DNA of 64,000 nucleotides from a virus: UHGV virus genome UHGV-0132893; one strand, written 5' to 3'. Below, one piece after another: positions 5,163 through 54,432 of the stretch. The position numbers were made by a program, and so were the translations under genes. The notes beneath the pieces were generated by a model. That model was not told the origin of the DNA. It searched no databases and was given only the letters and a program-made list of their open reading frames with translations. How positions within the stretch are numbered: the first letter of the stretch is position 1; every line of letters starts with the position of its first letter.

Positions 5163-5660
5163 TCAAGCACAATTTGCTTTCATTACCTTATGGATTCTTT
5201 TTTCAGCATCTTCATAAGTTTCTTTAGTAATAAACTTAATTGCTGCAATATTGGCATTGTAGAAGAGTCTGAGCTTCGAGTCAATCCTTTTTGTCATTAC
5301 ATCGAATTTATGTTGAAGGTTTGCTTCACCATAGACTAGGCCACCTTTTGTGTAGTAGGTCTGAATGATGTAAAAGTCAAAAAATTCTTTTCCAAAGCTC
5401 TCAATATCTTTTTTAATATACTCAGAAGAAGTCTCGTAAGTCATCCAATCACTCTCCTTAGTGACTACCTTCTTCCGAGTCTTCCCAGCAACTTTTCTTT
5501 TTGTCACACTGTTAAGCTGTTTCTTTCCGATATAATATTGTCCAGTCTTCTTACAGTGCACTAAATAGACAAAGCCAAAATGTTTAGTGGGGTCAACTTC
5601 CCCACATAAAGATACCCAATGACCGTAGGTGGGGCAATTGCCAAATCCTTTAATCTTCAT
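5163..5660 (-). CDS. GIY-YIG domain nuclease (possible homing endonuclease)
   Basis: FGFVYLVHCKKTGQYYIGKK matches GIY-(10-11)-YIG spacing of GIY-YIG nucleases. Confidence 0.5.
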   Translation of the reverse strand: MKIKGFGNCPTYGHWVSLCGEVDPTKHFGFVYLVHCKKTGQYYIGKKQLNSVTKRKVAGKTRKKVVTKESDWMTYETSSEYIKKDIESFGKEFFDFYIIQTYYTKGGLVYGEANLQHKFDVMTKRIDSKLRLFYNANIAAIKFITKETYEDAEKRIHKVMKANCA

Positions 5661-6690
5661 TCATACACGGCTCCCAATTATATTTCTTGAAAGAGAAATT
5701 GTCTTTTGGATTTCTCTCTTGATATGCTATCCAGAAATGCTGTTCCATTAACTCTAATGGTGTTTTGGTAACAGTCTGTCCATCCCATGACACATAGGTA
5801 TAAGAATCTTTTTTAGCATAAAGTTCATAGATAGCGTCAAGACACTCTTTGTAGGTCTCTTTACCCTCTAAAGCATTCATCACAGCTACTTTACCAGCAC
5901 CTTTTAGGCCGAAGTAGTTGTCTGCATTATCTCCAGCAACAGCCTGATAACACAAGAATTTAAAACCTACGCCAACTGTTTTTGCAGCTTTTGGTTTTGA
6001 TTTGATAGGGCAATCCCAGATATCACCAACATTATTGTCAGCAATAAAAATTAGTGGTGACTTTTCATAAGTCATATCAATACAATAAGTTCCTTCAGCT
6101 TGTCGAAGGTCTTTGTCAATACTCATAAGAGCAGCTTTCTTACCCATCTTTTCAGCTTTAGCGATTACGATTGAATCGGCTTCGAAGCCCCCCTTTAAGA
6201 GCTTAAACTCTGGTCTTGACAGAAGGTATTCACGACAAGCAACTAAGTGTGTTGGTGTGACAGCATCTTTACGGTTGCCTTGATATTGGTGCTCAAGACC
6301 TTTAACGTCTTTATGTTTATGCACACCTTTCTCTGTTAAATAGCCTACCCAAGTTCTCTCTTTCCCAACAACCTTAAGCCATTCCTGAAGCACCTGTTGA
6401 GTAGCCATGATAGCTTCTTTTTCACTCTTAGCTTCTTTCCAAGTCTGTCTTTCCCATTCATCTTCATCAAATGTCAGGCCAAGCTCTTCCACAAGGATTC
6501 TCTGGTCTGCTAACCATCTTGCAGCATCTTTCGCATTATCAAATGGTTCAGATTCTTCTGCTGTGAGTTTATTAACGTATTTATACTTTGCTTTCTCAAC
6601 TACACAAGCACCTTTATAGGCAATGCTGTCAGAGTCAATAAAGACATGTGTAACTGAATCGGGAAGCTTTGTTAATGTGTACTTCTCCAT
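5650..6690 (-). CDS. 5'-3' exonuclease / flap endonuclease (FEN, RNase H-like)
   Basis: N-terminal VFIDSDSIAYKGA (acidic PIN-like motif) and AGDNADNYFGLKGAGKVA (H3TH GDxSDN-like motif). Confidence 0.65.
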   Translation of the reverse strand: MEKYTLTKLPDSVTHVFIDSDSIAYKGACVVEKAKYKYVNKLTAEESEPFDNAKDAARWLADQRILVEELGLTFDEDEWERQTWKEAKSEKEAIMATQQVLQEWLKVVGKERTWVGYLTEKGVHKHKDVKGLEHQYQGNRKDAVTPTHLVACREYLLSRPEFKLLKGGFEADSIVIAKAEKMGKKAALMSIDKDLRQAEGTYCIDMTYEKSPLIFIADNNVGDIWDCPIKSKPKAAKTVGVGFKFLCYQAVAGDNADNYFGLKGAGKVAVMNALEGKETYKECLDAIYELYAKKDSYTYVSWDGQTVTKTPLELMEQHFWIAYQERNPKDNFSFKKYNWEPCMNED

Positions 6691-47144: not shown

Positions 47145-47220
47145 TGGAGAATCCGAAGGGACTCGAACCCTTATAAACCTGTTTTGCAGACAGGCACATA
47201 GCCATTTCTGTCACGGATTC
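47145..47220 (-). tRNA. tRNA-Cys (GCA)
   Basis: TGG (CCA) start on plus strand, T-arm aaggg-actcgaa-ccctt, anticodon arm cctgt-tttgcag-acagg. Confidence 0.6.
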
Positions 47221-47224
47221 AAAT

Positions 47225-47317
47225 TGGAGGAAGATACCAGACTTGAACTGGTACACCGATTTCTCAGCTACTGGCAGTTTAGCAAACTGCTCCCTTACCT
47301 TTTAGGGTTAATCTTCC
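47225..47317 (-). tRNA. tRNA-Ser (GCU), long variable arm
   Basis: T-arm accag-acttgaa-ctggt; anticodon arm gcagt-ttagcaa-actgc; acceptor ggaagat/atcttcc. Confidence 0.6.
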
Positions 47318-47319
47318 AT

Positions 47320-48054
47320 TTATTTCTGTAATGCGTTCTTCATTTCTGGTGTTGCAATAGTGTCAATTACACCAGTTTTACAAGCATCATCAAACCAGTC
47401 TGGTAAGATACCTGCTAAGAACCCATTGATATTCGTTTTAAGGTACTCTGCAATAAGAGAAGCTTCTTCTTCAATCATCTGCACAACTTCATCTGCATAA
47501 GCTGTAATCTTTGAGATACCTTCATTAATCTTACTAACAGCTTGGTTAGCTAAATCAGAAATAGTATCAAGACCTTTGTCAATAGCGTCTTGTAAGTCAC
47601 TTAATACATCATTAACACCGTCTAGTGCACTGTTAATCGTATCAATAGCTTTTTGGCCATACTCTGTAGCAACACCCATAATACCACTAAATGGTGTACA
47701 ACCAACTTGTTCACCTGCTGCACCCATAACATTAGAATAGCCTTTTGCTACCTGCATACGTGATGAGAACTCATCAATGGACTTTTGACCGTAATCTGTC
47801 AGTGTTTTGGTAGTTGATGTAGTGCTTGTCAGACTCGTGGTAAAGCTGTTAAGCAGAACTGTTGTAAGTCCAGCAGCAACAAGCTTATCCTTTACTGTAG
47901 GGTCTGATACAGAGCTAATAGAGCTTACAAGTGATGTAGAGGCAGCTACGGTTCCACCGAGAACTGCTGCACCAGTAATAAGGGGGTTAGAAAACCCTTT
48001 ACCAGTTTTTAAGAGATTGAAAATCTCCTTACCTTGTTCTGTCATCTCTTTCAT
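47320..48054 (-). CDS. hypothetical protein (Ser/Thr-rich N-terminus, helical C-terminus)
   Basis: ORF track 47320..48117 overlaps a tRNA; start moved to internal Met at 48054. Confidence 0.45.
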   Translation of the reverse strand: MKEMTEQGKEIFNLLKTGKGFSNPLITGAAVLGGTVAASTSLVSSISSVSDPTVKDKLVAAGLTTVLLNSFTTSLTSTTSTTKTLTDYGQKSIDEFSSRMQVAKGYSNVMGAAGEQVGCTPFSGIMGVATEYGQKAIDTINSALDGVNDVLSDLQDAIDKGLDTISDLANQAVSKINEGISKITAYADEVVQMIEEEASLIAEYLKTNINGFLAGILPDWFDDACKTGVIDTIATPEMKNALQK

Positions 48055-48070
48055 TAAGCACCTTTGAAAT

Positions 48071-48147
48071 TGGTAGTCCAGTGGGATTTGAACCCTCTTC
48101 TCATGTTTTTCAGACACGCGCTTTAACCATATAAGCTACTTGGACTA
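48071..48147 (-). tRNA. tRNA, tentatively Phe (GAA)
   Basis: T-loop atttgaa, acceptor tagtcca/tggacta; anticodon loop ttttcag with 4/5-bp stem. Confidence 0.5.
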
Positions 48148-48152
48148 TAAAT

Positions 48153-48228
48153 TGGGGTGACCTACGGGATTTGAACCCGTATAGACCATGTTCACAGCAT
48201 GGGTCATTACCATTTATGATAAGGCCAC
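48153..48228 (-). tRNA. tRNA-His (GUG)
   Basis: T-arm acggg-atttgaa-cccgt; anticodon arm ccatg-ttcacag-catgg. Confidence 0.6.
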
Positions 48229-48259
48229 ATTTAAGGACTCTCGTAAGAATCCTTAGAAG

Positions 48260-48335
48260 TGGCAGCGGCATAAGGATTTGAACCTTAATAGGACAGCTTC
48301 AGAGACTGCTGCATTGCCAGTTATGCTATACCGCT
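48260..48335 (-). tRNA. tRNA, anticodon not resolved
   Basis: T-arm taagg-atttgaa-cctta, D-stem gcat/atgc, acceptor agcggca/(t)accgct. Confidence 0.5.
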
Positions 48336-48340
48336 AAATT

Positions 48341-48418
48341 TGGTACTCCATATCGGATTCGAACCGATACATAACACAGATTTTAAGTCTGGCCTCTCTG
48401 CCAATTGGAGTAATGGAG
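48341..48418 (-). tRNA. tRNA, anticodon tentative (loop reads UAA but no long variable arm)
   Basis: T-arm atcgg-attcgaa-ccgat; loop caga-ttttaag-tctg. Confidence 0.45.
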
Positions 48419-48421
48419 CAT

Positions 48422-48497
48422 TGGCGGGGGATGTTGGAATTGAACCAACTTCTTCGATTTCAAAGACCGAGGTTTTAACCTTGTAAACTAATCCCCT
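48422..48497 (-). tRNA. tRNA-Gln (UUG)
   Basis: T-arm gttgg-aattgaa-ccaac; anticodon loop ttcaaag; acceptor gggggat/atcccct. Confidence 0.55.
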
Positions 48498-48505
48498 TTA
48501 AATCT

Positions 48506-49063
48506 TTACTTTCTTAGTGGATGAATAAAGAATGCCAACATAACTCTTTCCCTTGAGAATGCTCTTTCTTTTGGAACAACACTTTTGAGTTTCCATCCAA
48601 CATAAATTCTCCAGTAGAATTGTTTACCAAAGATTTTAATTGATGGAATAAAAGCGAATAATCCCCAAGCATTACTGTTCCACATTAGGAGATAACCAGT
48701 CTGATTATCTTCAGGGTTAGAACTTACGTTGATATTACCTTTCCACTTAGTAACATCTTTTACATCTCTTCCTAACACATGGTAAGAGAAGTTATAAGCT
48801 TTGTTTCTCCAGAGCCATCCAACTCTCTGCATGTAGACACCAAGCTTACCAATCTTTCTAATCTTAGCCCATCGTTTGATATGACCTGCATCACCATCAA
48901 TTGGGTTGTCATAAGTCTCCATCCATCTGAACCCGAAAGGTAAGTGTCCTTTCTTCTCACTGTAGAATGGAACTACAAAAGGTGCTAAGATAACTGCTAA
49001 GATTGCTGCAAATGGTTCTAACAAAGCTAAGAAAATCCATGAAGCATACTTTAAGTATCTCAT
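48506..49063 (-). CDS. membrane protein embedded in tRNA array
   Basis: 185 aa; N-terminal hydrophobic helix WIFLALLEPFAAILAVILAPFVVPF. Confidence 0.45.
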   Translation of the reverse strand: MRYLKYASWIFLALLEPFAAILAVILAPFVVPFYSEKKGHLPFGFRWMETYDNPIDGDAGHIKRWAKIRKIGKLGVYMQRVGWLWRNKAYNFSYHVLGRDVKDVTKWKGNINVSSNPEDNQTGYLLMWNSNAWGLFAFIPSIKIFGKQFYWRIYVGWKLKSVVPKERAFSRERVMLAFFIHPLRK

Positions 49064-49302
49064 TGTCTAATCCTCGTAAGGAGGTAAATGTTATTATTCG
49101 TTTCTAAACCTTCTGGTAAAACTGTCTCAAAAATAACACTCTTCAGATGTCTACCACCAAAACAATCACGTATAAATCTTTCTACTCTAGCGGGGTCACA
49201 TAAGTATCCCACTTTTAAGAAAATGTGGTGTTCAACACCAATGACCCTGACAAACTCAATACTCTCACAGTTTTCATGTTCAACTACTGTTAATGTTTGC
49301 AT
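49060..49302 (-). CDS. hypothetical protein embedded in tRNA array
   Basis: 80-aa ORF coupled to downstream ORF. Confidence 0.4.
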   Translation of the reverse strand: MQTLTVVEHENCESIEFVRVIGVEHHIFLKVGYLCDPARVERFIRDCFGGRHLKSVIFETVLPEGLETNNNIYLLTRIRQ

Positions 49303-49319
49303 AGTATCACCTGTTTATC

Positions 49320-49395
49320 TGGCGCAGGATAAGGGATTCGAACCCCTATTAACAGCTTCGTAGACTGTTGCTCTTTCCATTTGAACTAATCCTGC
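49320..49395 (-). tRNA. tRNA-Arg (ACG)
   Basis: T-loop attcgaa; anticodon loop ttcgtag; acceptor gcaggat/atcctgc. Confidence 0.55.
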
Positions 49396-49401
49396 AAAAA
49401 T

Positions 49402-49480
49402 TGGTGTTCCAAGACGGATTCGAACCGTCACTAATACAAGGTTTGAGCTTGCATCCTCTGCCAATTGGGATACTGGAACA
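49402..49480 (-). tRNA. tRNA, anticodon tentative (loop reads CAA)
   Basis: T-arm gacgg-attcgaa-ccgtc; D-stem atcc/ggat; loop caag-gtttgag-cttg. Confidence 0.45.
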
Positions 49481-49555
49481 TGGTACTCACTAAAGGACTT
49501 GAACCTTTTTCTTCATCTTGTAAGGGTGATGTTTTACCATATAAACTAAGCGAGT
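49481..49555 (-). tRNA. tRNA-Val (UAC)
   Basis: T-arm aaagg-acttgaa-ccttt; anticodon arm tcatc-ttgtaag-ggtga. Confidence 0.6.
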
Positions 49556-49650
49556 ATGAAAGAGGTCTGGAGTTGTGCCGCTAACTCAACTCCGTGGTAT
49601 TTGTTACGGTCTTCAGTTGACTCAAAGCGGTCTTTCACTTGACCTCTTAA
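49556..49650 (-). ncRNA. tRNA-like / structured element lacking canonical T-loop
   Basis: 8-bp terminal complement aagaggtc...gacctctt and 7-bp internal stem ggagttg/caactcc; no GTTCGAAT-type T-loop. Confidence 0.3.
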
Positions 49651-49651
49651 T

Positions 49652-49727
49652 TGGTGCTCCCACAAGGACTCGAACCCTGATAAGTTGCTTACAAGGCAAC
49701 CGTAATAACCAATTATACGATAGGAGC
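49652..49727 (-). tRNA. tRNA-Thr (UGU)
   Basis: T-loop actcgaa; anticodon arm gttgc-ttacaag-gcaac. Confidence 0.6.
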
Positions 49728-49734
49728 ATTAATT

Positions 49735-49809
49735 TGGAGCATCCAGAGGGAATCGAACCCTCAACCTCAGTTTGGAAGACTGTAATTTTCCCGTTTAAAC
49801 TATGGATGC
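49735..49809 (-). tRNA. tRNA-Gly (UCC)
   Basis: T-arm gaggg-aatcgaa-ccctc; anticodon loop ttggaag; acceptor gcatcca/tggatgc. Confidence 0.55.
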
Positions 49810-49815
49810 ACTAAT

Positions 49816-49891
49816 TGGTGGAGTCACCGAGAATTGAACTCGGTTCCCAAGTTTGCAAAACTCGAGTTTTAACCATATAAACTATGACCCC
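49816..49891 (-). tRNA. tRNA-Ala (UGC)
   Basis: T-arm ccgag-aattgaa-ctcgg; anticodon loop ttgcaaa. Confidence 0.55.
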
Positions 49892-49897
49892 ATTGTT

Positions 49898-49973
49898 TGG
49901 TACAGGTGGAGGGAATTGAACCCATCGTCTTACTGATTAAGAGTCAGCCGCATAACCATTTTGCTACACCTGC
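49898..49973 (-). tRNA. tRNA-Lys (CUU), paralog of 51228..51303
   Basis: T-loop aattgaa; anticodon loop ctga-ttaagag-tcag; near-identical acceptor/T regions to Lys(UUU) copy. Confidence 0.5.
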
Positions 49974-49980
49974 ATTAATT

Positions 49981-50058
49981 TGGTAGGAGACAAGGGATTC
50001 GAACCCTCAAACACCAACTTCTAAGGATGGTAGGTTTACCAATTACCATCAATCTCCC
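49981..50058 (-). tRNA. tRNA, anticodon tentative (loop reads UAG)
   Basis: T-arm aaggg-attcgaa-ccctc; loop ccaac-ttctaag-gatgg. Confidence 0.45.
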
Positions 50059-50316
50059 ATTAAATCTTTTTAGAGAACTTCTAAGAACCTAAGCAACAAG
50101 GTTCCACAACAAGCTGTAATAACCTTAGAAGCCCTCTAAAAAGACCTAAAAAGGTCTTTGCATAGTCTTGTTTAATCCGGTGACTAGAACCTTTGGAGAG
50201 CTTGATATTATCTCTTCTCCGTGACACCTACTAGGTGTTTTATCAGTGTGTACGACAATACACGAGGGATACCAAAGCAACATCCGAATGAAGCTTGGCT
50301 TTAAAATCTTATTAGG

Positions 50317-50404
50317 CGGTAAGTAAAGGAGTCGAACCCTCACCGTATCTCTACAGTGGCAACTGTTTTCAAGACAGTTTGGCTACCATTAGCCGCTACC
50401 TACC
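50317..50404 (-). tRNA. tRNA-Ser (UGA), long variable arm, CCA apparently not encoded
   Basis: anticodon arm aactg-tttcaag-acagt; ~20-nt variable region; weak T-stem. Confidence 0.45.
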
Positions 50405-50417
50405 CCTAATAAGACTT

Positions 50418-50500
50418 TGGCATGGGACGGAGGAGTTGAACCCCTTTGAAACGGTTTTGGAGGCCGTTGCTCATGCCTTAGAGTCTTAACATCGTCCCAT
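50418..50500 (-). tRNA. tRNA-Trp (CCA), unusually long D region
   Basis: T-loop agttgaa; anticodon arm acggt-tttggag-gccgt; acceptor atgggac/gtcccat. Confidence 0.5.
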
Positions 50501-50643
50501 ACTATAATTCGAAGCTTACCGTATTATCTCAACACTGTAAAGCCCCTTCTCAGATTATTTACATGTTCTGGAAAACATGAGATACAGACCACCTCCCTAC
50601 AGGAAGACCCTCTAAGGTCGTCTAAGTAATCTGCTAACTAAAT

Positions 50644-50720
50644 TGGCACACCCTACAGGATTCGAACCTGTAACTAACGATTTAGAAGACCGTTGCTCTA
50701 TCCAATTGAACTAAGGGTGC
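50644..50720 (-). tRNA. tRNA-Arg (UCU)
   Basis: T-arm acagg-attcgaa-cctgt; anticodon loop ttagaag. Confidence 0.55.
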
Positions 50721-50995
50721 ATTAACATTTTAAAGGGTACTTATTGCATTTAAGCCAAGCCCCATAAGGGATACCCTTTAGAATGTTGCCCACCTTATTA
50801 ATCATACCGTGGGCGAGTACGCCAAATTCTTTGATGAGGGATTGGAAGACCTCACTGGTGTTTAGCCTATCAAGCTACTGCCAGAAAAACATTGTCGTTT
50901 GCATTTATTTTAAATTTGCAAAATAGACGCTACGCAACGAAAACTAAGGTTACTATAAAGTAGTCACATCTCAATGTCAACAACTTTATTGAAAT

Positions 50996-51071
50996 TGGTA
51001 CTGGTAGGTGGAATCGAACCACCGATGTTCCCTTATCAGGGGAGTGTTATAACCTTCTTAACTATACCAGC
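50996..51071 (-). tRNA. tRNA-Ile (GAU)
   Basis: T-arm ggtgg-aatcgaa-ccacc; anticodon arm ttccc-ttatcag-gggag. Confidence 0.6.
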
Positions 51072-51072
51072 T

Positions 51073-51149
51073 TGGAGGTTCAGATGGGAATCGAACCCAC
51101 ATTCATAGGGCTTATGAGACCCTTGCATTACCTTATCTGCGACTGAACC
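51073..51149 (-). tRNA. tRNA-Met (CAU)
   Basis: T-loop aatcgaa; anticodon loop ttatgag; acceptor ggttcag/ctgaacc. Confidence 0.55.
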
Positions 51150-51227
51150 AGAATAAGTACCCTAGTTAGAGAAACTGTTGAGTGGGTGTTTCCAGCCGCG
51201 CAGGTGTTTCTCAGTTAAGGGTGAATT

Positions 51228-51303
51228 TGGTAGAAGTGGAGGGATTCGAACCCATCGCCTGTCAGATTAAAAGTCTGCCGCATCACCATTCTGCTACACT
51301 TCC
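51228..51303 (-). tRNA. tRNA-Lys (UUU)
   Basis: T-loop attcgaa; anticodon loop caga-ttaaaag-tctg. Confidence 0.55.
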
Positions 51304-51306
51304 ATT

Positions 51307-51449
51307 AAATTATCTTTGTAGATAAGCTACCCAGACTTGCTTAAGGTCTGTAGCGATGTGCCTTTTGGGTTTAAATCTAGAATTTACCCTTCACCCTTTG
51401 TGGTCGCATACTCACAGGTAAGCTTAATAACTTATCTACAAAGATAATT
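51307..51449. repeat. 19-bp perfect inverted repeat (aattatctttgtagataag / cttatctacaaagataatt) flanking 105 bp
   Basis: exact reverse complements at 51307-51325 and 51431-51449. Confidence 0.7.
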
Positions 51450-51730
51450 ACCAGACCGTTGTTTATCATCTTAAGTGCTACCATTACACCAACTCGACAT
51501 CTGCCGAGTGAAGGAATCGAACCTTCGCCTTTTCTTTACCGGAGAAATAGATTGTTTAAGTTTTGCTGTAAACGGTCTTCTGTAAATTTGTTGAGCCAGA
51601 CCAAGTTTTAAATTTTCAAAATTAAATTGGCTTGAAATTTCATACATTCTTGCTGTATTTGGTCTTCTGCTCCTTTAAAGAATACTCGTAAGAACTCTTT
51701 AAGGGAGGAGCTAAATAGCCCTCTCAAAAT

Positions 51731-51807
51731 TGGCGGCTACGATGAGACTTGAACTCACATCATCTCCCGTGACAGGGGAGTATTTTCTCCAGTTAAACTA
51801 CATAGCC
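51731..51807 (-). tRNA. tRNA-Asp (GUC)
   Basis: T-loop acttgaa; anticodon arm ctccc-gtgacag-gggag. Confidence 0.6.
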
Positions 51808-51812
51808 TTTAT

Positions 51813-51901
51813 TGGTGTGCCGTGTAGGAGTCGAACCTACCGAGTCTCAATGACAAGGGATTTACAGTCCCCACCGCTACCATCTACGGGATAACGACAC
51901 A
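51813..51901 (-). tRNA. tRNA-Tyr (GUA), long variable arm
   Basis: T-arm gtagg-agtcgaa-cctac; anticodon loop ggga-tttacag-tccc; ~15-nt variable arm. Confidence 0.6.
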
Positions 51902-51908
51902 TTTAATT

Positions 51909-51985
51909 TGGCGGTTAGTCAGGGATTCGAACCCTGTGCCATTCGCTTAACAGGCGACCGCACATACCTTATGTGCTTCCTAACC
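51909..51985 (-). tRNA. tRNA-Asn (GUU)
   Basis: T-arm caggg-attcgaa-ccctg; anticodon loop ttaacag. Confidence 0.55.
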
Positions 51986-52068
51986 ATGTTTAGTATTACC
52001 AGACCGTATCTTTCAATTTTTCCGCTAAAAATTTAATGAGTATTGCTGTAAACGGTCTTCTGTAAATT

Positions 52069-52145
52069 TGGAGGCGGGTGCAGGAGTCGAACCTGCCGAT
52101 ACCATGCTAATGAGACATGTGAGACGCCCTTTCTCTATACCCGCA
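52069..52145 (-). tRNA. tRNA with CAU anticodon (second copy: Met or Ile2)
   Basis: T-arm gcagg-agtcgaa-cctgc; D-stem gaga/tctc; anticodon loop taatgag. Confidence 0.55.
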
Positions 52146-52236
52146 ATTCTTAATGACCAGACCAAATCTCTTCTTTGTCCGATTTACCTTCAGATGAATA
52201 AGATTAAGTTTGCTGTAATTGGTCTTCTGTCAAAAC

Positions 52237-52314
52237 TGGCGTTCCAGAAGGGATTTGAACCCTCAAATATCCACTTTGAAAGAGTGGTGACTTTACCATT
52301 TTGTCCACTGGAAC
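52237..52314 (-). tRNA. tRNA-Glu (UUC)
   Basis: T-loop atttgaa; anticodon arm ccact-ttgaaag-agtgg; acceptor gttccag/ctggaac. Confidence 0.6.
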
Positions 52315-52321
52315 ATTAATT

Positions 52322-52398
52322 TGGTCTCTGTTGGAGGACTTGAACCTCCGGCCTTACCGCCCCAAACGGAACGCTCTACCAAGCTGAGCTAAACAGAG
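52322..52398 (-). tRNA. tRNA-Pro (UGG)
   Basis: T-arm ggagg-acttgaa-cctcc; anticodon loop ccccaaa; acceptor ctctgtt/aacagag. Confidence 0.6.
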
Positions 52399-52563
52399 AT
52401 AAACTTTTCAAACTCTATGTAACCACTTTAACATTATTTTTTAGTAGTTGTCAAGAACTTTTTTAAAATATTTTTCAGTATCTTAGAAAAGCTCTCATTT
52501 CGTTTCTATGTAGAACATATTAAAGGGTATTAAACACATTGTCAATACCCTTTTTAAAACTTT

Positions 52564-53979
52564 TTACCAGATGTAACGGTCAATCATTACTGCTTTGAGC
52601 ATTACGCTGATTGGGTCAAACTTCTCACCACCAAGCAGAGCTTTTAAAGTGGCTGGAGAGAAACCTGATACCATTGCTACACCGTTGTCCTTAACAGATA
52701 CTTCGCAAGTACCATTACGGTTTGCTAAGTACCAGAATACCAGTTGTGGCATCTCATATCCAGCTTTTTTGTACTTACTGCGAATTTCTTCAAAGTTTGT
52801 ACGACCATTTGCACCATCAACCTGATTGAACTCCATATCAGAGAAGATGATAAGCTTACTTGGCATATCTTTCTGAGTCAAGTTGTTTCTCTTACCTGTC
52901 TCAAGAATACGGTCAAAAGCTGCTTGTAAGTTAGTTGAGCCATATTCAACATGACGCATCACCTGACGATGACGGTTTTTCAAATCACCACTCAGTTCAA
53001 TGAAATGAGGGTTTGTTGAATAGACCATTAACTCGTCCTTAAAGCATCCTGTGTTGCGTTCTGCTACATACAAGGCAAGAGATACACCAATATCAAGAGC
53101 AGTGATTGAACCAAGATTTACCCAAGACATCGAGCTTGAGACATCAGTCATACATAAGATGTTTTCACCTTCTGCCATCCAGTTTGGTAGTGCTTTCCAC
53201 TGCTCATTCGCAACATCTGCATTACCATACTTGATAGACTTAATCACATCGTATGGGTAAACAGCACCAGCGTTAATCTTAGTCTCACCTTTTGATAAGG
53301 ACTCAATGTAAGCTTTGTAGCGTTCTCCATCTTTACGGTTAAAGAGTTTTTGGTAACGTGCAGCAGCGAGTGAAGGAATCTTGCTGTAGTCAATCTTACC
53401 GAACTCATTAGCAGAGATTTTTTGCTCAACCGTATCAGAAAGTGCAGACAACAGTGTGCGGTACTCTTTCTCACTCAAGTTGGAAAACTTGCAGAAACGT
53501 TTTACAAACTGTTTGTGTCGTGGTTTTACTCGTGGTAACCACTTGGCTGCTAAACCTGCTGTTTCAGGGTCTAGTAATGCTGCTTCTAAATGCTTAAAGG
53601 CATCTGTCTCAAAACGAGTACCTACAAAGATTTTGAAGTCATCAAAACGACCAAGTTCTGCAATCTTATCCATAATACGAAGAACCTGTGTAGGCTCTAA
53701 AACTTTGTCTTCGATTGCTTGAAGTAAAACAGTTCTGAAGGCTTTACGCTCACCCATACCTTCTCGTACATCTCGCATATGCAGCAAAATACGAACTGCA
53801 ACATCAACATCTTCACGCAAAGCTTTGTAGAACAAGTCTGGTAAGATTTCTACATTGCTACGGCTTGAACCAGCAGCTTTGTAAAAGTCTACAAGAGCAG
53901 ACATTGATGAAGTATGGTTTACAGCACCATTTTCAGTTCGACCTGCATGAAGGTGCGCATGTTTAAATAATTCGCTCAT
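52564..53979 (-). CDS. von Willebrand factor A (vWA) domain protein
   Basis: C-terminal half has MIDAS DxSxS motif (MTDVSSSM); 471 aa; adjacent to tRNA array. Confidence 0.6.
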   Translation of the reverse strand: MSELFKHAHLHAGRTENGAVNHTSSMSALVDFYKAAGSSRSNVEILPDLFYKALREDVDVAVRILLHMRDVREGMGERKAFRTVLLQAIEDKVLEPTQVLRIMDKIAELGRFDDFKIFVGTRFETDAFKHLEAALLDPETAGLAAKWLPRVKPRHKQFVKRFCKFSNLSEKEYRTLLSALSDTVEQKISANEFGKIDYSKIPSLAAARYQKLFNRKDGERYKAYIESLSKGETKINAGAVYPYDVIKSIKYGNADVANEQWKALPNWMAEGENILCMTDVSSSMSWVNLGSITALDIGVSLALYVAERNTGCFKDELMVYSTNPHFIELSGDLKNRHRQVMRHVEYGSTNLQAAFDRILETGKRNNLTQKDMPSKLIIFSDMEFNQVDGANGRTNFEEIRSKYKKAGYEMPQLVFWYLANRNGTCEVSVKDNGVAMVSGFSPATLKALLGGEKFDPISVMLKAVMIDRYIW

Positions 53980-54060: not shown

Positions 54061-54432
54061 TTATTTTTTGAGAGTCGCTACAGCAGAGAACGTTGGTTTG
54101 TTATCTGTCTGAGGTTGACCACCGTTATCAGGGGTCTTCTTAGTGTCTGCTGCAATTGCTTTCATCTCACCTGCTGAGTGAGTCATGATAGTTTTACCAG
54201 CTTCCATCATCGACTTCAGGTTTACATCGTCAGTCGTTAAACCGAACTCTGCAAGCTTAGCAGCGTCCCTTGTAACAATCGCCTCAAACAACTTTGCAGC
54301 AAACTCAGCAGAATTATCAATGGTTAGTTGAGCTTTTACGAGAGAGCTTTTGTTACGTGAGCCTTTCGGTCTTCCAGATGGGTTTCCAGACTGGCCTTTT
54401 TTAAACTGGCCTTTGTTTGTTCTGTTTTTCAT
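54061..54432 (-). CDS. hypothetical basic protein with GNPSGRPKG motif
   Basis: 123 aa; N-terminal KGQSGNPSGRPKGSRNK. Confidence 0.45.
   Translation of the reverse strand: MKNRTNKGQFKKGQSGNPSGRPKGSRNKSSLVKAQLTIDNSAEFAAKLFEAIVTRDAAKLAEFGLTTDDVNLKSMMEAGKTIMTHSAGEMKAIAADTKKTPDNGGQPQTDNKPTFSAVATLKK

What the first reader, a model, noticed from the sequence alone, without database searches (positions are those of the whole stretch)
52564..53979. vWA-domain protein directly flanking the tRNA array
The 471-aa protein has a clear MIDAS motif (DVSSS in MTDVSSSMSW) in its C-terminal half, so a vWA fold is well supported. Its ~280-aa N-terminal region is unassigned. Ro60/Rsr-type RNA-binding proteins combine an N-terminal TROVE domain with a C-terminal vWA domain and are encoded next to tRNA-like Y RNAs in bacteria and some phages, so the position beside a tRNA array and unusual structured spacers makes an RNA-surveillance role worth testing. 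This is a hypothesis from domain order and context, not demonstrated homology.
Basis: inference. Interest (0 to 1): 0.55.

Follow-up and report, generated by a model that had tools for sequence, protein, structure and literature searches.

The report
Phage Ro60-like protein with partner RNAs
This Felix O1-type phage gene encodes a divergent relative of the RNA-binding ring protein Ro60, already noted for a near-identical phage, and it sits beside a previously undescribed family of small structured RNAs that travels with this protein across very different phages and bacteria.

Summary
The ORF (52564-53979, minus strand, 471 aa), its DVSSS MIDAS motif and its position 166 nt from a 26-tRNA array are all confirmed.

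**Prior work.** The idea is not new. A 2024 preprint reports that the 98%-identical Bas63 gp130 resembles Ro60, lies upstream of the tRNAs, and counters the Ppl defence.

**New here.** Four unannotated RNAs in the tRNA spacers (units A-D, 51443-52238) share a covarying 7-bp terminal stem followed by UUACAGCAA. Unit D also contains a circularly permuted tRNA-like fold.
- Covariance models find this RNA family next to the protein gene in 43 of 78 divergent viral loci (median distance 55 nt) and in 39 of 80 bacterial loci. Every hit is on the gene's strand.
- The family is absent beside classical Ro60 genes.
- It also occurs without the gene nearby, and gp130 works without it against Ppl.

**Unresolved.** The short form matches the defining design of Dictyostelium Class I RNAs.

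The parts
52564..53979 (-). Gene for a 471-aa Ro60-like protein (Pfam DUF2828 + DUF7788; PHROG 850). It is the ortholog of Bas63 gp130.
   Evidence: ORF; Pfam and PHROG assignments; 98.1% identity to bas63_0130 with the same synteny; fold matches to Ro60.
53185..53979 (-). N-terminal all-helical domain (residues ~1-265). It has a HEAT-repeat, TROVE-like fold and many invariant Arg/Lys residues (R40, R69, R72, R78, R111, K146, R150, R208).
52660..53172 (-). vWA domain (residues ~270-440) with a complete MIDAS: D279, S281, S283 (coordinates 53131-53145), T349 and D381. It is followed by C-terminal helices (442-464) that correspond to the ring-closing helix of Ro60.
   Evidence: The phiLo Ro60 domain layout and its MIDAS residues D322/S324/T391/D416 are from PMC12135203.
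54019..54048 (-). Sigma-70-type promoter (TTGACA-18-TAAAGT) just upstream of the gene.
   Evidence: Consensus scan and direct reading of the sequence. This is a consensus match only.
52425..52545 (-). Two further sigma-70-type promoters (52517-52545 and 52425-52454) between the stop codon and tRNA-Pro. They face the tRNA and small-RNA array.
   Evidence: These are consensus matches only.
52149..52238 (-). Unit A, a short-form RNA: stem AGACCAA/UUGGUCU, motif UUACAGCAA, and an extra lower stem UGAC/GUCA.
   Evidence: Fold; motif; R2 47.9 bits; R3 41.4 bits.
51991..52071 (-). Unit B, a short-form RNA: stem AGACCGU/ACGGUCU, motif UUACAGCAA, and a lower stem UUAC/GUAA.
   Evidence: R2 54.3 bits; R3 49.8 bits.
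51590..51672 (-). Unit C, a short-form RNA: stem AGACCAA/UUGGUCU, motif AUACAGCAA, and a lower stem GAGC/GCUC.
   Evidence: Fold z-score -2.7; motif with one mismatch; R3 38.9 bits.
51443..51591 (-). Unit D, a long-form RNA. It has the same terminal stem and UUACAGCAA motif, enclosing a circularly permuted tRNA-like fold: anticodon/variable-like hairpin 51531-51547, T arm 51510-51526, closed acceptor-like hairpin 51492-51509, D arm 51474-51490.
   Evidence: Fold. RNAalifold on 11 variants shows compensatory changes in the acceptor-like hairpin. The strict T-AS-D scanner gives a single hit in the whole window. The Rfam tRNA model aligns the 5' part. R1 scores 177.5 bits and R2 136.6 bits.
47145..52398 (-). 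Array of 26 tRNA genes on the same strand as the gene. Units A-D are interspersed in it.
   Evidence: ARAGORN; Rfam.

Best explanation
**What it is.** The gene encodes a ring-shaped Ro60-type RNA-binding protein of a large, divergent clade (Pfam DUF2828 + DUF7788). The clade keeps the Ro60 architecture, a HEAT-repeat TROVE-like ring closed by a MIDAS-containing vWA domain, but has lost recognisable TROVE sequence similarity.

**How it most likely works.**
- Like Ro60 with Y RNAs, it most likely forms ribonucleoprotein particles with small RNAs encoded beside it on the same strand.
- In this phage these are four unannotated RNAs in the tRNA spacers (units A-D).
- The shared module is a 7-bp terminal stem that always starts (A/G)G, immediately followed by single-stranded WWWCAGCAA, with a trailing G after the 3' strand. 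This module is the probable protein-binding site.
- The variable interior would provide the effector end. In unit D the interior is a permuted tRNA-like fold with a closed acceptor stem, as in bacterial YrlA. It could recruit or mislead host tRNA- or RNA-handling enzymes.
- The particle is expressed from host-type promoters and serves the phage against host defence or RNA decay.

**What is shown and what is inferred.**
- Shown here: the fold relationship, the RNA structures with their covariation, and the gene-RNA linkage.
- Shown by others: the near-identical gp130 counters the Ppl defence.
- Inferred: that the protein binds these RNAs, and what the particle does.
For: **Protein fold**
- Model quality: pLDDT 89.2.
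- Foldseek: the top 10 matches are all full-length Ro60 structures.
- vWA_Ro60 Pfam hits in 13 of 62 members.
- hhalign to classical phage Ro60 is colinear over residues 190-450, P 1.1e-4.
- MIDAS residues are invariant.

**RNA in the window**
- The motif occurs 4 times against 0.31 expected, all on the gene's strand.
- The four units share a common fold, with compensatory differences between the copies.

**RNA family**
- 25 diverse members: 94.7% of cells paired against 61% in shuffles and about 40% when partners are slid; 30 of 32 pairs show compensatory changes.
- Short form: the stem is 99.2% paired and G5-C57 is invariant.

**Linkage, starting from the protein**
- All 45 hits of the long-form covariance model (R2) and all 54 hits of the short-form model (R3) are on the gene's strand.
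- 43 of 78 viral loci are positive. The nearest unit is within 100 nt in 26 loci, and the median distance is 55 nt.
- 19 positive loci have no tRNA gene at all.
- The result is replicated in bacterial assemblies: 39 of 80 loci, with 65 of 65 hits on the gene's strand.
- Units are also present beside the gene in Mycobacterium phage Faith1 (60.2 bits), Listeria phage LMSP-25 and Campylobacter phage CP81.

**Specificity**
- No short-form hit lies beside four classical TROVE phage genes.
- Only the units themselves are hit in the 64-kb window.

**Linkage, starting from the RNA**
- The Ro60-like protein is the most frequent neighbour (21 of 80 loci, all on the same strand).

**Precedent**
- Classical Ro60 genes have YrlA within 4 kb on the same strand (PMC4201824).
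- Phage phiLo Ro60 binds adjacent Y-like RNAs and host PNPase (PMC12135203).
- Bas63 gp130 counters Ppl (PMC11482910).
Against: - There is no binding data.
- gp130 alone, from a plasmid or inserted into T7, restores plating on a Ppl host. So at least that activity needs none of these RNAs, or it uses host RNAs.
- In 59 of 80 RNA-selected loci no family member lies within the stretch of DNA I held. At least 18 of those have more than 3 kb on both sides. They nevertheless carry strong members of the RNA family. So the RNA can exist far from the gene, or without it.
- 35 of 78 protein-selected viral loci gave no hit.
- Pfam TROVE is not matched, and residues 1-190 have no detectable sequence similarity to Ro60.
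- The YrlA motif GNCGAA is not conserved in unit D, and unit D does not hit Rfam YrlA.
- Ring closure and the central cavity could not be inspected.
Confidence: 0.6

Rival explanations
1. The protein works alone as a protein-level inhibitor. It uses its vWA/MIDAS face or its helical domain to bind and block the Ppl defence protein or another host factor. The neighbouring RNAs are functionally independent residents of the tRNA region, for example decoys for tRNA-targeting nucleases or processing elements.
For: - gp130 alone rescues T7 on a Ppl host, and even raises plating above the no-defence control.
- The RNA family is often found without the gene nearby.
Against: - The linkage is too tight and too widespread for coincidence. 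Every one of about 160 model hits in protein-selected loci is on the gene's strand, with a median distance of 55 nt. This holds in phages of four bacterial phyla and in bacterial assemblies.
- The linkage also holds in 19 loci that have no tRNA genes.
- The whole-protein fold is that of an RNA-binding ring, not only a vWA domain.
Confidence: 0.2
2. The units are cis-acting parts of the gene's own transcript, that is leader or trailer elements through which the protein autoregulates its mRNA or through which the transcript is processed. They would not be free small RNAs acting in trans.
For: - Many units lie within 10-100 nt of the start or stop codon.
- In bacterial loci they are mostly just upstream of the start.
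- No intrinsic terminator separates the gene from the array in the window.
Against: - Units occur on either side of the gene (16 loci upstream, 27 downstream).
- They occur in tandem sets of 2-6, up to 3 kb away, and in loci without the gene.
- In the window they lie beyond two promoters and two tRNA genes.
- The long form contains a complete tRNA-like fold, as trans-acting YrlA RNAs do (PMC4201824).
Confidence: 0.12
3. The resemblance to Ro60 is only a shared domain order (helical repeats plus vWA) reached independently. On this view the protein has no RNA-related role.
For: - There is no TROVE sequence match.
- The PDB profile search gives only E about 1 to Ro60.
- Sequence identity in the structural alignments is 10-17%.
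Against: - Ro60-specific vWA profile hits occur in 13 of 62 members.
- hhalign gives a colinear alignment that runs from the last HEAT helices into the vWA domain.
- The genomic habit is the same as for Ro60: tRNA-like RNAs alongside, and RtcB nearby in Listeria phage LMSP-25.
Confidence: 0.05

Closest known systems
Bas63 (Escherichia phage JohannRWettstein) gp130, a counter-defence protein against Ppl (PhageMaP preprint, PMC11482910)
   Same: It is the ortholog: 98.1% identical, with the same neighbours (small ORF upstream, tRNA-Pro downstream). The authors already noted 'high structural similarity to Ro60' and suggested that Y RNAs hide among the downstream tRNA genes.
   Different: Nothing differs at the protein level. 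The preprint did not identify the RNAs. The candidates found here are not annotated tRNAs but four spacer elements. Two of them lie under CDSs annotated on the opposite strand (bas63_0137 and bas63_0138), which are probably spurious.
Ro60 / Rsr with Y RNAs: Xenopus and human Ro60, Deinococcus Rsr-Yrn1-PNPase (RYPER), Salmonella Rsr-YrlA/YrlB
   Same: - Overall fold: a HEAT ring plus a MIDAS vWA domain.
- Partner RNAs encoded nearby on the same strand.
- One RNA with a tRNA-like module whose acceptor stem is closed, plus smaller RNAs without that module.
- Proximity to RNA-repair genes in some genomes (RtcB in Listeria phage LMSP-25).
   Different: - It is about 65 residues shorter.
- It has no Pfam TROVE match, and residues 1-190 are unalignable by sequence.
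- The RNA has WWWCAGCAA just inside a sequence-variable stem, instead of GGUCCGA or GNCGAA within the stem.
phiRo60 of Thermus phage phiLo with Yrl1/Yrl2 (PMC12135203; PDB 9l5y, 9kop)
   Same: It is a phage-encoded Ro60 of similar size (502 aa) with the same domain layout and MIDAS residues. Its partner RNAs are in the adjacent non-coding DNA, and it is proposed to interfere with host RNA decay. It is a top structural match.
   Different: phiRo60 is annotated as a TROVE-domain protein in its PDB entry (9l5y) and uses CGAA-motif RNAs. Sequence identity to the window protein in the structural alignment is about 15%.
YrlA RNA (Rfam RF02553; Chen et al. 2014, PMC4201824)
   Same: Unit D and the long forms elsewhere have the same order of elements: variable-like hairpin, T arm, closed acceptor-like hairpin, D arm, all enclosed by a terminal stem. 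Several long forms beside family members score 29-39 bits on RF02553. That is as much as the published ET08 phage YrlA at 37.4 bits. The long-form covariance model R2 matches the tRNA-like core of the ET08 YrlA.
   Different: The terminal module differs: there is no conserved GNCGAA. Unit D itself gives no RF02553 hit even at E<=10, and none of the hits reaches the 69-bit gathering score.
Dictyostelid Class I RNAs (Rfam RF01414; Kjellin et al. 2021, PMC7919456)
   Same: The design is the same feature by feature:
- They start with ..AG, and the G is invariant and pairs with the C of a 3' CUG(U).
- They have a 6-7-bp terminal stem conserved in structure but not in sequence.
- The motif (CC)UUACAGCAA directly follows the 5' strand.
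- The interior is variable and A/U-rich, and the total length is about 60 nt.
- There are several paralogs per genome.

RF01414 is the best Rfam family for units A and B and for a Listeria phage unit, in end-to-end alignments.
   Different: The scores are 19-23 bits, below the 41.5-bit gathering score and below the authors' 25-bit candidate threshold. Class I RNAs are eukaryotic, transcribed from DUSE promoters, and were reported as unique to Dictyostelia. No protein link has been shown.

Membership tests
Pfam DUF2828 (PF11443) + DUF7788 (PF25043); PHROG 850 | Profile match above the curated cut-off | tested here: met
   PF25043 scores 146.5 bits (cut-off 27.1) and PF11443 scores 102.4 bits (cut-off 29). 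phrog_850 matches over the full length at E 2.4e-183. All 62 aligned homologs carry both domains.
Ro60 / TROVE proteins | TROVE domain (PF05731) recognisable by sequence profile | tested here: not met
   There is no PF05731 hit for the window protein at E<=1, nor for any of 62 family members at E<=10. Four classical phage Ro60 proteins used as controls score 133-168 bits. hhalign leaves residues 1-190 unaligned.
Ro60 / TROVE proteins | Whole-protein fold: helical-repeat domain plus vWA domain superimposable on solved Ro60 structures | tested here: met
Ro60 / TROVE proteins | Ro60-type vWA domain with a complete MIDAS | tested here: met
   D279, S281, S283, T349 and D381 are invariant. PF25045 (vWA_Ro60) is hit by 13 of 62 members (best E 4.7e-4), though not by the window protein itself. 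The hhalign alignment includes the MIDAS.
Ro60 / TROVE proteins | Closed ring with a basic central cavity and an outer Y-RNA-binding surface | not testable with these tools
   The model's coordinates cannot be inspected. The only available facts are that the alignment to Ro60 spans 395 residues and that many Arg/Lys residues are invariant in the helical domain.
Ro60 / TROVE proteins | Binds Y RNAs and/or misfolded RNAs | not testable with these tools
   This needs an experiment. The only functional data are the gp130 anti-Ppl phenotype.
Ro60 / TROVE proteins | Candidate partner RNA encoded within a few kb on the same strand | tested here: met
   Units A-D lie 326-1121 nt downstream on the same strand. 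At family level, 43 of 78 viral loci and 39 of 80 bacterial loci are positive, with no hit on the opposite strand.
YrlA RNA (RF02553) | tRNA-like domain: T arm, closed acceptor-like stem-loop, D arm (plus or minus a variable arm) enclosed by a terminal stem | tested here: met
   This holds for unit D. There is covariation in the acceptor-like hairpin, with three different stem sequences.
YrlA RNA (RF02553) | GNCGAAN0-1G motif near the 5' end | tested here: not met
   The only such sequence is GGCGAAG, which overlaps the T stem. It reads GGAGAAG or AGAGAAG in orthologs. The conserved 5' motif is WWWCAGCAA instead.
YrlA RNA (RF02553) | Covariance-model score at or above the gathering score (69 bits) | tested here: not met
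   Unit D gives no hit at E<=10 in a 191-nt search. Relatives elsewhere score 29-39 bits. The published ET08 YrlA itself scores only 37.4 bits.
Dictyostelid Class I RNA (RF01414) | Short terminal stem conserved in structure but not sequence, with an invariant 5' G paired to the C of a 3' CUG(U) | tested here: met
   The stem is 7 bp and 99.2% paired, 6 of 7 pairs covary, and G5-C57 is invariant in 17 units. The 3' tail is CUGG in the window and CUGU/CUGA elsewhere.
Dictyostelid Class I RNA (RF01414) | 11-nt motif CCUUACAGCAA adjacent to the 5' strand of the stem | tested here: inconclusive
   Nine of the eleven positions are present in the same place: UUACAGCAA in units A, B and D, AUACAGCAA in unit C. 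The CAGCAA part is invariant in all 17 units. The leading CC is replaced by the end of a stem that is one pair longer.
Dictyostelid Class I RNA (RF01414) | Covariance-model score at or above 41.5 bits (Rfam), or 25-32 bits (the authors' thresholds) | tested here: not met
   The scores are 19.7 bits (unit A), 19.3 bits (unit B), 12.8 bits (unit D) and 23.1 bits (Listeria phage unit).

The most novel reading that the evidence does not exclude
The short RNAs beside this phage gene and the abundant Class I RNAs of Dictyostelium are the same kind of molecule. Class I RNAs have been of unknown function since 2004 and are thought to be unique to social amoebae. On this reading both are the 'Y RNAs' of the DUF2828-type Ro60-like protein family, which Pfam, as I recall it, also lists from eukaryotes.

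The reading predicts that dictyostelids encode a DUF2828/DUF7788 protein that binds Class I RNAs through the terminal stem and the UUACAGCAA motif. The obvious candidate is DDB_G0281243. It is the protein of unknown function that was pulled down with Class I RNA DdR-21 and is conserved in all Dictyostelia.

My evidence neither shows nor excludes this. The design match is complete. The covariance scores are sub-threshold. I could not retrieve any Dictyostelium protein.
Probability: 0.3. Interest if true: 0.9.

Novelty: new variant of a known kind. Interest (0 to 1): 0.66.

Why it matters
**The protein.** The protein itself is not news. Its near-identical ortholog has been called Ro60-like and shown to defeat a bacterial defence.

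**Scale of the clade.** This Ro60-like clade is much larger than the classical phage one: 710 phage records against 358, more than 2,600 protein clusters, and hundreds of bacterial loci. It is mostly annotated as 'hypothetical' or 'DUF'.

**The RNA.** Its likely RNA partner had not been identified. The RNA family defined here comes in a short stem-plus-CAGCAA form and a long tRNA-like form. It gives a concrete, testable answer to the preprint's guess that 'some tRNA genes are Y RNAs'. It supplies covariance models to annotate these RNAs in phage genomes. It also flags ORFs drawn over them as probably spurious.

**If the protein and RNAs form a particle.** It would be a second, widespread Ro-Y system used by phages. 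It would offer a handle on what tRNA mimicry does during infection and on how Ppl is countered.

**If the Dictyostelium resemblance is real.** An orphan class of abundant eukaryotic RNAs would gain a candidate protein partner and a mechanism.

Tried and rejected
- **Sequence searches against solved structures.** phmmer found nothing. The family profile gave only E about 1 to Ro60. This was a hint, not evidence.
- **Filing unit D as YrlA.** Rejected: there is no Rfam hit, and the apparent GGCGAAG motif is not conserved.
- **Unit D as a remnant of two tandem tRNAs**, the false-positive class warned of by Chen et al. Rejected: the acceptor-like strands pair with each other and covary in three sequence versions, and no ARAGORN tRNA overlaps any such module.
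- **The upstream 123-aa ORF (54061-54432) as a general partner.** Rejected: it is found only in Ounavirinae-like relatives, in a PHROG of unknown function.
- **A hand-written stem-plus-motif detector.** It was too noisy (49 same-strand, 21 opposite, about 8 in shuffles) and it missed units A-C. I replaced it with covariance models.
- **MAFFT alignment of the short units.** It shifted the 3' strand by one column in six rows. I replaced it with a gapless alignment in which only the centre of the variable interior is trimmed.
- **Exclusive adjacency of RNA and gene.** Rejected by the reverse test.
- **Eukaryotic homologs.** The 2011 pull-down paper (Avesson et al.) is not held. Literature searches for DDB_G0281243, DUF2828 and related identifiers returned nothing useful.
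Full report
**Observation**

The ORF at 52564-53979 on the minus strand encodes 471 aa and contains CMTDVSSSMSW. ARAGORN finds 26 tRNA genes at 47145-52398, all on that strand, and the nearest ends 166 nt after the stop codon. The window is 97% identical to Felix O1-like phages (Felixounavirus).

**What the protein is**

Pfam assigns DUF7788 (residues 275-455, 146.5 bits) and DUF2828 (102.4 bits), not TROVE or VWA. PHROGs places the whole protein in phrog_850, labelled 'RNA-binding protein'. NCBIfam has nothing.

The family is large:
- at least 2631 protein clusters, all with the same two Pfam domains;
- 710 phage records, from phages of Escherichia, Salmonella, Vibrio, Campylobacter, Listeria, Staphylococcus, Enterococcus, Bacillus and Mycobacterium;
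- at least 453 stretches in bacterial assemblies.

In a 62-member alignment the MIDAS residues D279, S281, S283, T349 and D381 are invariant, as are many Arg/Lys residues in the helical half.

Sequence searches against solved structures are uninformative. phmmer finds nothing. The family profile finds Ro60 only at E about 1, at the MIDAS stretch.

The fold comparison is decisive.
- An AlphaFold2 model from the alignment has pLDDT 89.2 and pTM 0.88.
- Its ten best Foldseek matches in the PDB are all full-length Ro60 structures: Xenopus, human, Deinococcus Rsr and Thermus phage phiLo. They score E 2.5e-8 to 1.5e-6 with TM up to 0.65. Isolated vWA domains follow only at E>=2e-3.

So the N-terminal helical domain also superimposes on the TROVE ring. 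The domain layout parallels that published for phiLo Ro60: HEAT 25-306, vWFA 316-477, a closing C-terminal helix, and MIDAS residues D322/S324/T391/D416.

At sequence level the relationship is faint.
- None of the 62 members hits Pfam TROVE, even at E<=10.
- 13 members hit the Ro60-specific vWA model PF25045, and 35 hit VWA_2.
- hhalign against four verified classical phage Ro60 proteins aligns residues 190-450 colinearly with 265-538, at P 1.1e-4 and probability 57%.

I therefore treat the protein as a Ro60-fold homolog of a distinct clade, not as a member of Pfam TROVE.

**Prior knowledge**

The PhageMaP preprint (PMC11482910) states several things about Bas63 gp130:
- Some of those tRNA genes might be Y RNAs.
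- Deleting gene 130 makes Bas63 sensitive to the Ppl defence.
- gp130 alone, from a plasmid or inserted into T7, rescues T7 on a Ppl host.

bas63_0130 is 98.1% identical to the window protein and has the same neighbours.

Classical Ro60 (33-40% identical to human Ro60) occurs in a different set of 358 phage records, mostly actinophages such as ET08 and Bxz1. Those are the phages in which YrlA RNAs were described (PMC4201824). Both clades carry the annotation 'Ro-like RNA binding protein' in actinophage genome records.

**The RNAs**

Reading the spacers on the tRNA strand shows a motif, AGAAGACCNWTTACAGCAA. It occurs four times against 0.31 expected, only on this strand and only within 51563-52228. 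Each copy is followed 40-110 nt later by GGTCTGG.

All four units fold into the same closing structure:
- a 4-bp lower stem that differs between copies by compensatory changes (UUAC/GUAA, UGAC/GUCA, GAGC/GCUC);
- an AGA/G internal loop;
- an upper stem AGACCnn/nnGGUCU;
- single-stranded UUACAGCAA directly after the upper stem.

Unit D (51443-51591) encloses four hairpins. The Rfam tRNA model aligns the first two, plus the following strand, as anticodon arm, variable loop, T arm and 3' acceptor strand. They are followed by the 5' acceptor strand and a D arm. Unit D is therefore a circularly permuted tRNA-like fold with a closed acceptor stem, which is the architecture of YrlA.

Thirteen distinct variants from related phages keep the T and D arms invariant. 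The acceptor-like hairpin appears in three unrelated but always complementary versions: ACTCG/CGAGT, ACACG/CGTGT and CCCTTC/GAAGGG.

The YrlA motif GNCGAA is not conserved. Unit D does not hit Rfam YrlA even with permissive filters.

**Is the RNA tied to the protein family?**

I fetched 75 viral loci encoding relatives at 38-47% identity.
- tRNA genes lie within 5 kb in 24 of 76 loci, always on the gene's strand.
- A strict scanner for T arm, closed hairpin and D arm found 14 modules on the gene's strand, 1 on the other strand, 0 in shuffles, and only unit D in the whole window.
- None overlaps an ARAGORN tRNA.
- Every one sits inside the same larger design as unit D: a terminal stem of different sequence in each locus, then (U)UYCAGCAA, and after the 3' strand UG(N)UAA.

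Rfam's YrlA model picks up several of them at 29-39 bits. That is the level reached by the published ET08 YrlA, 37.4 bits. It fits only the tRNA-like core.

A covariance model built from the Felix-type unit D gave 63 hits at E<=1, all on the gene's strand. On 25 diverse hits, 94.7% of cells pair, against 61% in shuffles and about 40% with slid partners, and 30 of 32 pairs show compensatory changes. That alignment was fitted by the model, so it leans towards the structure, but the margin is large.

The rebuilt long-form model (R2) gave 45 hits at E<=0.01, all on the gene's strand. The alignment defines the signature and shows short (76-90 nt) and long (113-176 nt) forms.

Seventeen short units fit one exact register:
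- a 7-bp stem starting (A/G)G;
- a 9-nt WWWCAGCAA;
- a variable A/U-rich interior;
- the complementary strand;
- then G.

In a gapless alignment the stem is 99.2% paired, 6 of 7 pairs covary and G5-C57 is invariant. This is partly circular, because I picked the 3' strand by complementarity. A short-form model (R3) gave 54 hits at E<=0.1, all on the gene's strand.

Combining both models:
- 43 of 78 loci have at least one unit;
- the nearest unit is within 100 nt of the gene in 26 loci and within 500 nt in 40;
- the median distance is 55 nt;
- 16 are upstream and 27 downstream.

Nineteen positive loci contain no tRNA gene, so the units follow the protein gene, not the tRNAs.

The pair is also seen in three annotated phage genomes:
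- Mycobacterium phage Faith1: 60.2 bits, 93 nt downstream of the gene;
- Listeria phage LMSP-25: three tandem short units just upstream, with RtcB 1.3 kb downstream;
- Campylobacter phage CP81.

It is replicated in bacterial assemblies: 39 of 80 loci, with all 65 hits on the gene's strand, mostly just upstream of the start. The short-form model finds nothing beside four classical TROVE genes. The long-form model matches only the tRNA-like core there.

**Limits of the linkage**

I also started from the RNA alone, with the pattern TTTCAGCAA...GGTTCGANTCC. It gave at least 120 viral stretches against about 20 that I estimate by chance.
- Only 21 of 80 loci contain the protein gene in the DNA held. 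All 21 have it on the same strand, mostly within 1.1 kb.
- Nearly all 80 carry strong family members, often several.
- At least 18 of the negative loci have more than 3 kb on both sides.

So the RNA family is widespread, and the gene can be distant or absent. The protein is nevertheless its most frequent neighbour. The next most frequent are a DSP/PTP-type phosphatase, metallophosphoesterases and an AAA_33 P-loop kinase, which together resemble an RNA-end-healing set.

The anti-Ppl activity of gp130 needs none of these RNAs.

**Context in the window**

- A sigma-70-type promoter (TTGACA-18-TAAAGT) precedes the gene.
- Two more such promoters lie between its stop codon and tRNA-Pro.
- No convincing terminator separates them.
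- The upstream 123-aa ORF is confined to close relatives.

**Mechanism proposed**

The protein is a Ro60-like ring. It binds the stem-plus-CAGCAA module of the neighbouring RNAs, as Ro60 binds the Y RNA stem. The variable or tRNA-like interior would engage host tRNA- or RNA-handling factors, as Y RNA tethers PNPase to Rsr and as phiLo Ro60 and its Yrl RNAs bind and attenuate host PNPase. The outcome favours the phage against defence or RNA decay.

- Shown: the fold, the RNA structure and covariation, the linkage, and (by others) the Ppl phenotype.
- Inferred: the binding, the RNA's stability, and the target.

**An unexpected resemblance**

Among 4227 Rfam families, the best end-to-end match for units A and B and for a Listeria phage unit is the Dictyostelium Class I RNA model, at 19.7, 19.3 and 23.1 bits. 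These are below its 41.5-bit threshold.

The published definition of Class I RNAs is:
- start AAG and end CUGU, with the invariant G pairing with the C;
- a 6-bp stem conserved in structure only;
- CCUUACAGCAA next to the 5' strand;
- a variable remainder, about 60 nt in all, with many paralogs.

The phage short form meets this point by point. Those RNAs are reported as unique to Dictyostelia and their function is unknown. One of the four proteins pulled down with DdR-21, DDB_G0281243, has no known function. From my own knowledge of Pfam, DUF2828 also occurs in eukaryotes, and the only literature hits for it are plant and tardigrade papers. I could not retrieve any Dictyostelium protein. This remains a lead with a cheap decisive test.

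**Verdict**

- The added value is the partner-RNA family.
- I rate the whole as a new variant of a known kind (a Ro60-Y RNA system). Confidence is about 0.9 that the protein has the Ro60 fold, and about 0.6 that it works with these RNAs.

Noticed in passing
window 52069-52145 (-): ARAGORN calls this tRNA-Met (CAT), and it is annotated as such in Bas63. It gets no Rfam tRNA match, only 15.9 bits on tRNA-Sec. It has an atypical D arm and sits exactly between units A and B.
   Followed up: partly
L001 (Bas63) 5430-5582 and 5594-5704; window about 51459-51647: The annotated hypothetical CDSs bas63_0137 and bas63_0138 lie on the opposite strand, directly over units D and C. The window has matching 50-aa and 58-aa ORFs. 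Given the RNA covariation, these ORFs are probably spurious.
   Followed up: partly
window 50054-50153, 50424-50498, 50870-51054 (-): Other long spacers of the tRNA array give weak Rfam hits: a hairpin, a tRNA-Sec-like match at 23 bits, and a permuted-tmRNA-like match at 29 bits. They may hold further structured RNAs. None matched the covariance models built here.
   Followed up: no
window 52522-52553 (-): A 12-bp hairpin lies immediately after the stop codon and overlaps the -35 box of the next sigma-70-type promoter. It could couple termination or processing of the gene's transcript to initiation of the RNA array.
   Followed up: no
L235 (Listeria phage LMSP-25) 1428-1979 and 5808-7019: A ROOL RNA match (88.5 bits, just under the 99.1-bit threshold) lies about 1 kb upstream of the family member, and an RtcB 'tRNA-splicing ligase' lies 1.3 kb downstream. 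The RtcB echoes the Salmonella rsr-yrlBA-rtcBA operon.
   Followed up: no
L113 (Gordonia phage Sixama) 3468-3889 and 4374-4472: A phage-encoded tmRNA (88 bits), a YrlA-like RNA (46.8 bits) and four tRNA genes directly follow a classical Ro60 gene. So classical phage Ro60 genes also sit in tRNA-rich regions.
   Followed up: no
L114-L193 (RNA-selected viral loci): The recurrent protein neighbours of the RNA family, besides the Ro60-like protein, are a DSP/PTP-type Cys phosphatase (15 loci), metallophosphoesterases (12 and 6 loci), an AAA_33 P-loop kinase (11 loci) and GIY-YIG/HNH endonucleases. The first three resemble RNA-end-healing enzymes.
   Followed up: partly
L051 10696-10922: A group I intron (71.5 bits, above threshold) lies a few kb from a family member in an uncultivated phage contig.
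   Followed up: no
L002 (Yersinia phage vB_YenM_P778) 1-1068: This Felix-like relative encodes TerD-like and TerC tellurium-resistance proteins and a radical SAM protein a few kb from the conserved block of lysis genes, the Ro-like gene and the RNA array.
   Followed up: no
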